NCBI GenBank assembly: GCA_039621445.1
Contig: CP154954.1
Span: 12,580,716-12,644,715, forward strand
DNA: 64,000 nucleotides
DNA from: Euglena gracilis
Lineage: Eukaryota
Direction of reading: 5' to 3'
Positions 4,122 through 7,100 of this stretch are shown here, one piece after another (the first letter of the stretch is position 1; the number at the start of each line of letters is the position of its first letter). A program made the position numbers and the translations under genes. The notes under the pieces are model-generated. The model was not told where the DNA came from, searched no databases, and worked only from the letters and a program-made list of their open reading frames with translations.

Positions 4122-7100
4122 GTCGTTTCGCAACGCCCTGCCGCCGAAGGACCGCATCCTGGCGGAGGACGAGGAGGAGCCGCCTTGTACGGGCCCCATC
4201 AACACCCGCCTCCCCTACCGTGACCTGGTCGTTGCCCTGAAAGGTGCGCCGGTGCGAGTTCTCTCGTGCTGTTCACCGCGGGGCAAGTTAACCGTTGTCT
4301 TCAATTGACCTTGTTTTGTCTCTTTTTTTTTGTTCAACGCTTCGAGTGGTTCCATGTGATTTCCTTTGGGGTAGTTCAACCAGGGGCTCAGGGCCAAGGG
4401 CCAACAGACGCCCAAACTGTCAACTGCAAAAATTATTATTATTATATTATTATTATCCGTAATCATAAACCGGTGCCAAAACGTCAGAAAAATGTGTTTT
4501 CGACTTTTTAATTTTTGACCCTGTCGACCCACGGATCAGCCTTTGGCCATCCCTTGGCCCAAGGGCAGTCTTTAGGGGAAAAAGGCTGATATCCAACAGG
4601 TAATATTTTTTTCAGTCGTCCGTTCCGATGGTGGTGAAGGTGCGGATATCCCTGAAATCCACCCGTTTTTTTAACCCAAAATAAGGCCGTTTTGCGCCAT
4701 TTTTTCCCTGTGGATTTTTCATTGAATGTGCTCCAACAGTATTTTTTGTCTTTTTTCTTTTCTTACTGCCCTGCCGTCATCGGGCAGGTCTGCGCCACTG
4801 ACCCACACTGCCAACCCCTTACCCTCCAGGGGGGCCGGCACTGCACTGCAACTCCGTGCAGCCTCCCCGCGTCCTGTCCCTCAGAGCCGGCAACGGGCCG
4901 GCTGAGCCCCCTGGAGCGCTGCGGGACCGACGTGCTGGATGCCATCTTTGCGTTCTGTGACGCGGTCAGGAGGTTTCTGAGGCCCGAAGGCCCCAGCAAC
5001 CATCACCCACCTGCTATTTTTTTTTATCCATCCACAGCTTTCATGTCTGCGGTAATCAAATTGCCCCAGCTAAGCTGGTTTGAAACCAAAATTCTGGGAG
5101 TTTAATTTATTTGTGGGAATTGGGGGCCACATTTGCATTTCAAAAACCGCCACCATTGAGCCTTTAGGGGCTCGCTTGCAAAAAAAAAACTGGTTAAAAT
5201 TTGCAAACCATGCACATCACGTTTTTTTTTTTTACACAGTATTTCATTTCCCCGCCGACTCCGGCCTGACAACCTGCAGAGCCCCCCCCCCCCCTTGATG
5301 GACCCACCCCCAGCAGGGGAGCCGTCGGGGGTCCTGCCCACACCACCACACTTCTCCTTGCGGGGCTGGGTGCGTGGGGGTGTTCCAACAAACCCCCCTG
5401 GACGCGGTGGACCTCATCATCTGCCGCTTCGTGTGCCCGGCGTGGTGGGCCGGGGCCAGCGGCCGGCTGTACTTCGGCGTGCTGGAGCAGAGCCGGACGG
5501 GCCCCCGGTGTGGGACGTCGGCAAGTGGGCGCATGGGTGTTGCCGGTCGTTTATTTCGGGAGACGGAAAACCCAGCGTGTCACCGTCGACACTTTGCTCA
5601 TTCATCGATTTTATTTATGGGGTTTGGTGGGTTCTTGAGTGTGGGTGGGTGAGTCGGGTCGCTGGACCCCCCACCCCTCCTGCCACCGCGGAGGGTGGGG
5701 AGCGCTATGGGACAATGAAGCCGAGCCGAGCCAAAAGCCACACCAGGGGTTTCGGCTTGTTTGAGGTGCTGTTTGGATGGGTGGGTGGGTAGGTTGACCC
5801 CCGCGCGGGTTTTATGGTTGCTTTTCAATAATAGTGGGTGGGTGGCTTTGGGTCCGCCCCCCCCCCCCCAAGTGAATCACTGGCTTCATCCCACGGCTCA
5901 CAGAACCGTGCATTTCATTGACATTTCGATAGAAATATTTCGAAAGATTATGTATTTTTTGTGTGGGTCTTTCTACGAATAACTGTCCAAGGTCGCCCAC
6001 TCCTCTGTGTTGCAGGCTGCTGGGCAAGGTCATGCAGGCGCAGGTGCGGGTGGCCACGTCCGGCTTCCGCACGCAGCACGAGGCGCACTGCTTCCTGGAG
6101 GCCAAGTGCCTCCAGCTAACCCCCCCCCCCAAATAATACCCCCCCGGGGAATTATTTCTTTGCCCGAAGTCCTGGCCCGAAGGGGGGTATTATTTGGGGG
6201 GGGTAATAGCACCCCAAAATTTTCGAAATTTTTTGATGTCCTGTAAGACCCAAAATAGCATACAAAGCCCCCCCTTTGGGGTCATTTTTTCTCCTTTCTC
6301 ATAAAATGTAGCATTTTTGGAGGCCAGGTGATCCAGAAAAATCGATATTTTTCGTAATTTGTTGTCAGAGATTGTCAGAGAGACATTTTTACCCAAAGTT
6401 TCAGGTCAAAATCCGGGTCGTCGGCCTGAGATTTTGGGGGGGGGTATTAATTCGGTGGCCGAAGTGGGACCCCAAGGGGGGGGTATTATTTGTTTTGGGA
6501 AGGTAGGCCCAAAAGCTGCCAAAAAAGGCCAAAGTGTGGACAAAAGTGCCCAAAAACGGCCAAAAGGAGTGCCAAAAAGTGGCTAAGGGTGGCCATGTTG
6601 TTGGACAGTGGTGGGCAAAAATGGCTAAATGTGTGGCAAAAGTTGACAAAAGTGCACAAAAGTGGCCAAAAGTCATCTTTGTCTCAGAACAAATTCTTCC
6701 AATATTGTGGCCGGGACCCCACCTCCAGTGTTCAAACCCGACAAATCCCGACAAATCCTGGCAAATCCTGTCAACACCACCAAAATGACAAGTGCCTGGA
6801 AGTGCTTGCTGTCGGCACAGGAGAAGACGGAGCGCCGCCGGTCGAAGCGGCACGACCAGGCATCTGCTTAACGGTTGACAGTCCCCCCCGGAGGCGATGC
6901 TGGCAAGTCCCAAATTGATTAATTATTTGGGGCTAGTCCCAATTTGACTGTTGGAAATGAGGCGCCCCCTCCCCCCCCTGGCGAGGGTCCCGCTAACAAC
7001 CGGAAAACCGAGACCCACTGACCAGAAATTTTTGGAACCTCAAACCCCACCATTAATGCACATTTCTGGCATTTTTTTTGGGATTCTGTGGAACAAAATG

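What the first reader, a model, noticed from the sequence alone, without database searches (positions are those of the whole stretch)
4959..5408. Perfect 8-bp duplication GACGCGGT bracketing a CAG...CTG intron inside the F-box
An exact duplication sits precisely against the stem ends, and its removal rebuilds a contiguous F-box-like motif. It looks like a young intron gain. One slide position gives a GT start (GTCAGG), which would make it look like an intermediate intron.
Basis: seen in the sequence. Interest (0 to 1): 0.8.

Follow-up and report, generated by a model that had tools for sequence, protein, structure and literature searches.

The report
Euglena nonconventional intron with 8-bp insertion footprint
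This is a real, efficiently spliced "nonconventional" intron of Euglena gracilis whose perfect 8-base flanking repeat looks like the scar of the DNA insertion that created it; it is a clean example of a known kind of intron, not a new kind.

Summary
GACGCGGT occurs at 4959-4966 and 5401-5408, directly abutting CAG (4967) and CTG (5398-5400). RNA reads and a transcript contig skip exactly 442 nt here (element 434 nt plus one repeat copy), with 8 nt of ambiguity. A DNA contig keeps the segment. The joined frame equals the E. gracilis protein EG_transcript_15752.

The intron fits the published Euglena nonconventional (NC) splicing code N3-CAG...CTG-N5|R at 4964-5405. The two spacers (3+5) add up to the 8-bp repeat.

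An 8-bp repeat alone is not beyond chance in this window. However, four other code-fitting NC introns here match in the same register at 21 of 32 positions (P=6e-6). A repeated MITE-like family in the window (TIR CAGGCATTTGCTTAAGG) has 8-bp target-site duplications, and one member is the next-but-one NC intron downstream in the same gene. So the repeat is best read as an insertion footprint.

- "Young" is unproven. The intron is single-copy, has weak terminal repeats, and is held by all 14 DNA runs.
- "Intermediate intron" fails, because no slide position gives GT-AG.
- "F-box" is only a sub-threshold Pfam match.

Verdict: a new member of a known kind.

The parts
4885..4963 (+). Upstream coding exon (79 nt). 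Preceded by a GT-AG intron at 4244-4884. It ends at 4963 under the nonconventional code.
   Evidence: RNA joints 4241->4883 (GT..AG, cut +2) and 4958->5401. The frame is open across the joints and identical to P0002.
4959..4966 (+). Direct repeat copy 1, GACGCGGT. The first 5 nt are exonic; the last 3 nt are the N3 spacer of the intron.
   Evidence: family D12.
4964..5405 (+). Nonconventional intron, 442 nt, at the position that fits N3-CAG...CTG-N5|R (GGT CAG ... CTG GACGC | G). Any of 9 positions from 4959-5400 to 4967-5408 gives the same mRNA.
   Evidence: Joint 'skips 442, both = 8' in X21 (13 reads, 11 starts), X24 (2 reads) and X17 (1 contig); 0 in DNA run X1. RNA depth is 0 in 5071-5197 against about 8 in the flanking exons. 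The code is from PMC12501133.
4967..5400 (+). The presumed inserted element, 434 nt. Its termini are CAGGAGGTTT... and ...AAACCCCCCTG. The interior is AT-richer with A/T/C homopolymer runs. Single copy.
   Evidence: No other copy in the window by blastn (word 7, E<=0.1; only poly-C matches). No hit by the MITE-family nhmmer profile at E<=10. X1 word depth is 28.5-88.9, the same level as the flanking single-copy exons. Terminal duplex is -20.0 kcal/mol.
5401..5408 (+). Direct repeat copy 2, GACGCGGT. The first 5 nt are the N5 spacer of the intron; the last 3 nt are exonic.
5406..5507 (+). Downstream coding exon (102 nt). It begins with a purine (G5406) and is followed by a GT-AG intron at 5508-6015.
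   Evidence: RNA joints; translation matches P0002.
3577..4145 (+). Intron A of the same gene, nonconventional. Fits the code (GGA CAG...CTG CCGCC|G) with a perfect 8-bp terminal stem. The 8 nt before CAG and the 8 nt after CTG match at 5/8.
   Evidence: Joint 3576->4146 with 60 reads in X21.
6854..7292 (+). Intron F of the same gene, nonconventional (GAC CAG...TTG GGCAT|G). It is a member of the repeated MITE-like family. Flanking 8-mers are GGCACGAC / GGCATGAC (7/8).
   Evidence: The RNA loose end behind 6857 continues at 7297. P0002 reads straight across (KRHDRMPAEVRA). Family profile hit over 6857-7287 has E 1.6e-101, but F was one of the four sequences the profile was built from. Independent of that, blastn with the 23371 element gives 71% identity over 176 nt.

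Best explanation
The segment is an ordinary, efficiently removed nonconventional (NC) intron in a small Euglena gracilis gene. The gene encodes EG_transcript_15752, a 268-aa protein with a weak F-box-like motif.

Shown: 442 nt are removed from the mRNA. The only cut position that satisfies the published NC code (5'-N3 CDG ... CH'G N5-6 | R) is 4964-5405. There the CAG and CTG pair and bring the two ends together.

Inferred: the intron arose when a 434-bp piece of DNA ending in CAG...CTG was inserted into the coding exon with an 8-bp target-site duplication (GACGCGGT). The NC machinery cuts 3 nt before CAG and 5 nt after CTG. It therefore removes the insert plus exactly 8 nt, which leaves one copy of the duplicated target and restores the pre-insertion reading frame.

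The perfect repeat means that none of the 8 positions has changed since insertion. That is compatible with a recent gain but does not prove one.
For: Splicing and identity:
- The 442-nt skip with 8 nt of ambiguity appears in two RNA read sets and one transcript contig, and is absent from DNA contigs. RNA depth inside the intron is zero.
- The spliced frame is identical to P0002 (EG_transcript_15752) and colinear with the E. longa orthologue P0003 and with P0004. The junction block is invariant.

Fit to the code:
- GGT-CAG...CTG-GACGC|G fits N3/CAG/CTG/N5/purine (PMC12501133).
- It also fits the E. gracilis consensus CAGG at +4..+7 and CCTG at -9..-6 (PMC11170887).
- The terminal duplex is -20.0 kcal/mol, like the RNA-verified NC introns A (-19.2) and F (-20.2) of the same gene.

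The repeat as an insertion footprint:
- Four other code-fitting NC introns in the window, not chosen for their repeats (A, F, Rab21-I2, Rab21-I4), match at 5, 7, 6 and 3 of 8 in the same register. That is 21/32, P=5.6e-6, and shifted registers are near chance.
- Among 788 stem candidates, only a duplication length of 8 is enriched (at least 7/8: 3 observed, 0.50 expected).
- A repeated TIR family in the window has 8-bp duplications: 23371-23765 (8/8) and 34245-34585 (8/8; nested in an intron, so not under selection for splicing), plus 49225-49669 (6/8) and intron F (7/8).

Precedent: a strain-specific NC intron in E. agilis gapC has an 8-nt direct repeat (PMC4770533).
Against: - The intron interior has no other copy in the window and is at single-copy depth at 90% likeness or more in DNA run X1. 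No transposon family can be named for it.
- Its terminal inverted repeat is short and bulged. Only 4 contiguous pairs follow from CAG:CTG. The duplex energy is only at the 8.5th percentile of random CAG..CTG pairs. The whole-intron fold is not better than shuffles (z -0.77).
- Its termini resemble the family TIR only weakly (5' end rank 20 of 635, 3' end rank 271 of 635).
- No transposase was found in the 60 longest ORFs scanned (of 169 ORFs of 110 aa or more outside the microsatellite).
- A naive window-wide count of 8-bp repeats abutting CAG..CTG (7) lies within the range of shifted-register controls (0-13).
- No empty site was seen: all 14 DNA runs hold the intron words (only X1 was laid).
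Confidence: 0.6

Rival explanations
1. Insertion by double-strand-break repair rather than transposition. A staggered break in the exon was filled in, giving the 8-bp duplication, and unrelated filler DNA was captured. Only inserts that happened to carry CAG...CTG abutting an 8-nt duplication could be removed cleanly by the NC machinery and so survive in a coding exon.
For: - The interior is single copy and unrelated to the repeat family, and the TIR is weak.
- This origin was proposed for the 8-nt-repeat intron of E. agilis gapC (PMC4770533).
- The 3+5 spacing of the code would itself select for 8-nt duplications in exons.
Against: - A true repeated TIR family with the same CAG(G) termini makes 8-bp duplications even where splicing is not required. 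An example is 34245-34585, nested inside Rab21 intron I4.
- Filler DNA would have to supply CAG, CTG and a pairing stem by chance.
Confidence: 0.2
2. An old NC intron whose perfect repeat is coincidence, or is kept by selection. Five plus three of the 16 repeat bases are coding. The palindromic CGCG core lets the two copies pair and extend the terminal helix through both cut sites.
For: - In the end-to-end fold, CGCG of copy 1 pairs with CGCG of copy 2 next to CAGG:CCUG.
- The intron is present in every DNA run listed.
- In E. gracilis only 72,771 of 413,446 introns are non-slidable, so about 82% are slidable (PMC12501133 SI). Another NC intron of this gene (U, 2577-3492) has a 6-nt repeat without the CAG/CTG code.
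Against: - 8/8 by chance is 1.6e-5 per intron.
- The spacers were found to be sequence-free in knock-in tests, which used synthetic introns with arbitrary spacers (PMC12501133).
- Neighbouring NC introns show graded decay of the same 8-nt register, which fits a footprint that erodes rather than one that is selected.
Confidence: 0.12
3. A conventional or 'intermediate' spliceosomal intron that uses the GT at 4965.
For: GT is at 4965-4966 at one slide position. There is a C-rich run before the 3' end.
Against: - The matching 3' end is CG. None of the 9 positions gives GT/GC-AG (from the sequence).
- GTCAG does not match the E. gracilis 5' consensus GTGTG (PMC11170887).
- Hybrid introns are defined by carrying both boundary motifs (PMC12501133).
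Confidence: 0.03
4. Not an intron at all: reverse-transcriptase template switching between the two repeat copies produces a false deletion in cDNA.
For: Direct repeats brought together by structure are the classic setting for this artefact (recalled, not checked in a paper).
Against: - RNA depth in the intron interior is 0 while the exons are covered. Three independent data sets show the same joint.
- Unspliced RNA would break a frame that is conserved without indel in E. longa and a third homologue.
Confidence: 0.01

Closest known systems
Euglena nonconventional introns obeying the code 5'-N3CDG...CH'GN5-6|R (Nomura et al. 2025, PMC12501133; sections read: Results, Discussion, part of the SI)
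   Same: CAG at +4..+6, CTG at -8..-6, a 3-nt and a 5-nt spacer, a purine at the start of the downstream exon, pairing next to CAG/CTG, and a 'slidable' boundary caused by a direct repeat.
   Different: Nothing in kind. The repeat here is the maximal one that the 3+5 spacers allow (8 of 8). In the parts I read, the paper treats direct repeats as a nuisance for boundary calling and does not relate their length to the spacers.
Intron 4 of gapC in Euglena agilis strain ACOI 323 (Milanowski et al. 2016, PMC4770533; passages read)
   Same: A nonconventional intron with an eight-nucleotide direct repeat at the intron-exon junctions, read by the authors as the mark of recent gain.
   Different: There the gain is demonstrated by absence in other strains. 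Here no empty allele was seen. The authors favoured double-strand-break repair as the cause.
MITE-like origin hypothesis for NC introns, with TSD-like repeats (Milanowski et al. 2014, PMC3935182; review PMC11282704; passages read)
   Same: Inverted termini plus flanking direct repeat. Insertion into an exon is tolerated because the RNA is cut out.
   Different: This intron is single copy. The window does contain a genuine repeated family with the same architecture, and one of its members is an NC intron in the same gene.
Introner elements / transposon-derived spliceosomal introns (Micromonas and others; review PMC11282704, passages read)
   Same: A DNA transposon with TIR and TSD becomes an intron. 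Part of the TSD is used so that excision restores the exon.
   Different: Introners are removed by the spliceosome at GT/GC-AG sites and occur as large, similar families. This intron has non-canonical ends, depends on end pairing, and has no detected copies.
hAT-superfamily MITEs
   Same: An 8-bp target-site duplication is the hallmark used to assign MITEs to hAT (PMC7385995, passage read). Termini beginning CAG are recalled for Ac/Ds-type elements (recalled, not checked).
   Different: No hAT transposase was found among the 60 of 169 ORFs scanned, and there is no sequence similarity to any hAT element. This is a lead only.

Membership tests
Euglenid nonconventional intron | Removed from the mature mRNA | tested here: met
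   The 442-nt skip is seen in X21 (13 reads), X24 (2 reads) and an X17 contig; 0 in DNA run X1. Intron RNA depth is 0. The transcript-derived protein P0002 is colinear.
Euglenid nonconventional intron | No GT/GC-AG borders at any compatible position | tested here: met
   The nine slide positions give GA..TG, AC..GG, CG..GA, GC..AC, CG..CG, GG..GC, GT..CG, TC..GG and CA..GT (read).
Euglenid nonconventional intron | CAG at +4..+6 and CTG at -8..-6, with a 3-nt 5' spacer, a 5-6-nt 3' spacer, and a purine starting the downstream exon | tested here: met
   At 4964-5405: GGT CAG ... CTG GACGC | G. The rule is from PMC12501133.
Euglenid nonconventional intron | Base pairing that brings the two ends together | tested here: met
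   The inter-arm duplex is -20.0 kcal/mol, equal to verified introns A and F. It is only at the 8.5th percentile of random CAG..CTG pairs. CAGG:CCUG and CGCG:CGCG pairs appear.
Euglenid nonconventional intron | Excised as a full-length circle, independent of the spliceosome | not testable with these tools
   No back-joint is listed, but 70 joints were not shown and the libraries are not circle-enriched.
Intermediate / hybrid intron | Canonical GT/GC-AG borders available at some slide position, together with NC features | tested here: not met
   Only the 5' GT exists (4965). Its partner end is CG.
Transposon-derived (MITE-like) intron | Target-site duplication directly abutting the element ends | tested here: met
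   8/8 GACGCGGT abuts CAG and CTG. Family elements in the window use the same 8-bp register.
Transposon-derived (MITE-like) intron | Terminal inverted repeats | tested here: inconclusive
   CAGG(A)GG(T)TT against CAGGGGGGTTT is imperfect. There are 4 contiguous pairs. The family element 23371 has an 18-bp perfect TIR.
Transposon-derived (MITE-like) intron | Multiple related copies in the genome | tested here: not met
   No copy in the 64-kb window by blastn or the family nhmmer profile. Depth is single-copy in X1 at 90% likeness or more. The whole genome could not be searched.
Transposon-derived (MITE-like) intron | Presence/absence polymorphism or an empty orthologous site | not testable with these tools
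   14 of 14 DNA runs hold 0.84-0.87 of the words. No sister-species DNA was available. The metagenome scan found no relative.
F-box domain (PF00646) | Pfam match above the gathering score | tested here: not met
   P0002 scores 18.7 bits against a cut-off of 20.5 (E 0.0016), over residues 121-145 and profile positions 7-31 of 43. P0003 has no hit. 2 of 3 homologues match at E<=10. The AlphaFold model was too poor to use (pLDDT 36.6). A PDB profile search gave 0 hits.

The most novel reading that the evidence does not exclude
The 3-nt and 5-nt spacers of the Euglena nonconventional splicing code sum to 8 because NC introns descend from DNA elements with CAG...CTG termini that insert with an 8-bp target-site duplication (hAT-like geometry). 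RNA excision would then be the exact mirror of the insertion: element plus one duplication.

On this reading, the family with TIR CAGGCATTTGCTTAAGG in this window is a still-recognisable source of such introns. Intron 4964-5405 is an undecayed, possibly recent, single-copy insertion of the same class.

The 3/5 stagger would leave a 2-nt 3' overhang on the paired stem. This points to a structure-guided endonuclease plus ligase rather than the spliceosome (my inference).
Probability: 0.4. Interest if true: 0.7.

Novelty: new member of a known kind. Interest (0 to 1): 0.42.

Why it matters
Nonconventional introns make up most introns of Euglena. Their removal machinery is unknown, and their transposon origin is still called a hypothesis in the 2025 papers I read.

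This locus gives an unusually clean case. A perfect 8-bp flank lies in the exact register of the experimentally defined cut sites. Beside it, in the same gene, is an NC intron that belongs to a repeated TIR family with 8-bp duplications.

If the 8 = 3+5 relation holds genome-wide, the origin question becomes a simple computation on existing assemblies. It would also constrain the geometry of the unknown excision enzyme.

By itself, though, this intron is one more member of a class already described, including a published precedent with an 8-nt repeat.

Tried and rejected
- Whole-genome search for copies: no genome is held for this window.
- Rfam scan of the window: 0 matches.
- RNA holders in the run index: 'no RNA holder listed' among the indexed rows. 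RNA evidence came from laying the raw-read runs.
- Whole-intron fold: not more stable than shuffles (z -0.77). The MFE does not pair CAG with CTG.
- Constrained end-fold energy (-31.9 against a background of -14.6): rejected as evidence, because most of the energy comes from local hairpins within each arm.
- Naive window count of 8-bp repeats abutting CAG..CTG: not separable from shifted-register controls.
- Similarity of the intron termini to the family TIR: weak (ranks 20 and 271 of 635). The family nhmmer profile gives no hit in 4964-5405 at E<=10.
- Pfam on the two exon halves and on the two genomic ORFs: 0 families.
- Structure prediction of the protein from 3 sequences: pLDDT 36.6, unusable, so no fold search was made.
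- PDB profile search: 0 hits.
- Metagenome scan for orthologous loci with P0002: 67 pattern matches, none confirmed.
- Transposase search: 60 of the 169 ORFs of 110 aa or more outside the microsatellite were scanned. Only a Ras/Roc exon hit.
- Literature: searches found no paper linking Euglena NC introns to hAT or stating that the spacers sum to the duplication length. This covers only the held library, and figures (for example the slide-distance histogram of PMC12501133) could not be seen.
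Full report
**What is in the sequence.** GACGCGGT stands at 4959-4966 and again at 5401-5408. 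The first copy is followed at once by CAG (4967-4969). The second is preceded at once by CTG (5398-5400). The repeat cannot be extended on either side. The two copies are read in the same codon phase by two open frames, 4656..5105 and 5299..5652. The copy-to-copy distance is 442 nt. Joining the frames therefore needs removal of the 434-nt CAG...CTG element plus one repeat copy. Removing 434 nt alone gives another frame.

**Is the repeat more than chance?** Taken alone, no.
- The 561 bp around it contain three exact 8-mer repeat pairs and one 9-mer pair.
- Exact 8-bp repeats abutting a CAG...CTG pair 40-3000 bp apart occur 7 times in the window (5 not low-complexity).
- Markov simulations give a mean of 2.06 (1 of 100 reach 7), and shifted-register controls give 0 to 13.

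The significance comes from what the repeat brackets.

**It is a spliced intron.** I laid two raw RNA-seq runs (X21, X24), one set of probable transcript contigs (X17) and one DNA run (X1) on 3420-7220.
- A joint from 4958 to 5401, 'skips 442', with 8 letters fitting either side, is seen in 13 reads of X21 (11 start places), 2 reads of X24 and one 540-nt contig of X17.
- It is not seen in X1. There a 1432-nt contig runs colinear through 4703-6130, intron included.
- RNA depth is about 8 in the flanking exons and 0 in 5071-5197. Removal is therefore essentially complete, and a reverse-transcription artefact is excluded.
- 70 weaker joints were not displayed, so minor alternative joints cannot be excluded.

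**The gene.** The same reads, plus loose ends located, give this partial gene model:
- Exons: ..2576, 3493-3576, 4146-4243, 4885-4963, 5406-5507, 6016-6102, 6817-6853, 7293-..
- Introns: U 2577-3492, A 3577-4145, B 4244-4884 (GT-AG), C 4964-5405, D 5508-6015 (GT-AG), E 6103-6816, F 6854-7292.
- One frame is open across all joints.

A search with the downstream exon returned a 268-aa protein, P0002 (EukProt name EG_transcript_15752). It is identical to my spliced model across every joint. That naming is the one used for the E. gracilis transcriptome (passage in PMC6366073), so the window is Euglena gracilis.

P0003 (GGOE01004234) is 82% identical. Accessions of this series are E. longa transcripts (passage in bioRxiv 10.1101/573709). 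A third homologue, P0004, is 48% identical. The block FAFCDAVDLIICRFVC around the joint is invariant and has no indel in all three. The intron sits in the codon of Ala132.

**The F-box claim is weak.** Pfam gives PF00646 at 18.7 bits, below its cut-off of 20.5 (E 0.0016), over residues 121-145. The E. longa protein gives nothing. The exon halves alone, a PDB profile search and an AlphaFold model (pLDDT 36.6) added nothing.

**What kind of intron.** Nomura et al. 2025 (PMC12501133; I read Results, Discussion and part of the SI) defined the nonconventional (NC) splicing code of Euglena by knock-in mutagenesis. The code is 5'-N3 CDG ... CH'G N5-6 | R, with pairing next to the trinucleotides.
- Of the nine equivalent positions of intron C, one fits exactly: 4964-5405, GGT CAG ... 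CTG GACGC | G.
- It also fits the E. gracilis consensus CAGG at +4..+7 and CCTG at -9..-6 (PMC11170887).
- The predicted duplex between the two ends is -20.0 kcal/mol. That is the same as for the RNA-verified NC introns A (-19.2) and F (-20.2). It is only at the 8.5th percentile of random CAG..CTG pairs.
- The whole-intron fold is unremarkable.
- None of the nine positions gives GT-AG or GC-AG.

It is therefore a plain NC intron, not an intermediate or hybrid one.

**What the repeat is.** The two spacers of the code, 3 and 5 nt, add up to 8. Suppose a piece of DNA ending in CAG...CTG is inserted with an 8-bp target duplication. Cutting 3 nt before CAG and 5 nt after CTG then removes the insert plus exactly one duplication and restores the original message.

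I tested whether this register is general in the window. I used NC introns that fit the code and whose removal is shown independently of any repeat:
- Intron A, shown by RNA reads.
- Intron F, shown by RNA loose ends and P0002.
- Two introns of a Rab21-like gene, mapped by tblastn with homologues P0006, P0007 and P0009. Rab21-I2 at 33715-33871 splits the conserved DTAGQE motif, and the code-predicted cut restores it. The other is Rab21-I4.

The 8 nt before CAG and the 8 nt after the 3' trinucleotide match at 5, 7, 6 and 3 positions. That is 21 of 32, P = 5.6e-6, while shifted registers stay near 2 of 8. In a noisier scan of 788 CAG..[CT]TG pairs with at least 12 of 14 terminal pairs, only a duplication length of 8 is enriched (at least 7/8: 3 observed, 0.50 expected). 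Lengths 2-7 and 9-12 are at expectation.

**A real transposon family with this architecture lies in the window.**
- Element 23371-23765 (395 bp) has a perfect 18-bp terminal inverted repeat, CAGGCATTTGCTTAAGG.., and a perfect 8-bp duplication, ACCCAAGA.
- Element 34245-34585 is 87% identical to it. It carries the duplication CTTCCGAT (8/8), although its last base has changed to CTC. It lies nested inside Rab21 intron I4, where nothing selects for precise RNA removal.
- Element 49225-49669 has 6/8.
- Intron F of the F-box-like gene itself is a member. Its TIRs are CAGGCATCTGCTTAACGG and (reverse complement) CAAGCTTTTGCTTAAGGG. Its duplication is 7/8. blastn with the 23371 element gives 71% identity over 176 nt. 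The profile hit E 1.6e-101 is by construction, since F was used to build the profile.
- The profile finds many further fragments.
- Two more CAG...CTG elements have perfect 8-bp flanks: 30100-30645 and 51282-51535.

An 8-bp duplication is the character used to assign MITEs to the hAT superfamily (PMC7385995). I found no transposase in the 60 of 169 long ORFs scanned, so hAT is a lead, not a finding.

**Limits for intron C itself.**
- Its interior has no relative in the window. It sits at single-copy depth in DNA run X1 (28.5-88.9, against 1e4-1e5 for the dispersed repeats nearby).
- Its termini resemble the family TIR only weakly, and its inverted repeat is short and bulged.
- It may be a low-copy element of the same class. 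It may instead be captured filler DNA at a staggered break, as Milanowski et al. 2016 proposed for the strain-specific E. agilis gapC intron, which also has an 8-nt repeat (PMC4770533).
- 'Young' is not shown. All 14 DNA runs listed hold 0.84-0.87 of the words of a query that is 57% intron (only X1 was laid). No DNA of a sister species was available, and a metagenome scan found no orthologous locus.

**Comparison with what is known.**
- Direct repeats at NC intron borders are common. 84.4% of E. agilis introns and about 82% of E. gracilis introns are 'slidable'.
- TSD-like repeats, CAG/CTG inverted termini and a MITE-like origin have been discussed since 2014 (PMC3935182, PMC11282704).
- The finding is thus a new, very clean member of a known kind.
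- In the parts of the papers I read, and in three searches, I did not find two points. One is the relation between the 3+5 spacers and an 8-bp duplication. The other is the identification of a repeated family that supplies NC introns. Figures and some supplements could not be seen, so this may already be known to specialists.

**Verdict.** The class is the nonconventional intron. The repeat is most likely an 8-bp insertion footprint. Recency is unproven, the intermediate-intron reading is rejected, and the F-box label is weak.

Noticed in passing
23371-23765; 34245-34585; 49225-49669; 6857-7287; fragments at 18505-18826, 35126-35291, 61137-61326, 45053-45150, 47951-48116, 30558-30645: A MITE-like repeat family with TIR CAGGCATTTGCTTAAGG.. 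and 8-bp target-site duplications (8/8, 8/8, 6/8, 7/8 in the four complete copies). One copy is NC intron F of the F-box-like gene. One copy is nested inside an intron of the Rab21-like gene.
   Followed up: yes
33169-37499 (+): A Rab21-like GTPase gene mapped by homology. Introns I1 and I3 are GT-AG. I2 (33715-33871) is a 157-nt NC intron that splits the DTAGQE motif; its flanks are GCCAGGAA / GCCAAGAG (6/8), and the two differences are synonymous third positions. I4 (about 34130-34854) is NC with flanks matching at 3/8.
   Followed up: partly
30100-30645 and 51282-51535: Two further CAG...CTG elements with perfect 8-bp flanking repeats (GTGAAAAC and ATCCCTCC). Whether they are introns is unknown.
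   Followed up: no
2577-3492 and 6103-6816: NC introns U and E of the same gene are RNA-supported but do not fit the CAG/CTG code at the 5' end. U has a 6-nt direct repeat (CCACCC) and E has a 3-nt one. They belong to the fraction of NC introns that the published code does not explain.
   Followed up: partly
3801-4054, 4690-4816, 6087-6467, 6722-6848, 7103-7220: Dispersed repeats inside introns, with summed word depth of 1e3-1e5 in DNA run X1 against about 30 for single-copy DNA. Many carry C-run/G-run cores.
   Followed up: no
7527-9686: A 2.1-kb (GTAT)n-type microsatellite (543 copies, 92% matches) just downstream of the short exon that starts at 7293, probably inside the next intron of the same gene. 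There is also a 91-bp tandem repeat (3.2 copies) at 3129-3416 inside intron U.
   Followed up: no
4964-5405 versus 5508-6015: Between the window and the X1 DNA contig, intron C shows no substitutions (only two homopolymer length changes). The neighbouring conventional intron D shows about five substitutions and two insertions. This was not interpreted.
   Followed up: no
4961-4964 with 5403-5406: The repeat has a palindromic CGCG core, so the two copies can pair with each other and carry the terminal helix through both cut sites. On such a helix the 3/5 spacing puts the cuts 2 bp apart, giving a 2-nt 3' overhang.
   Followed up: partly
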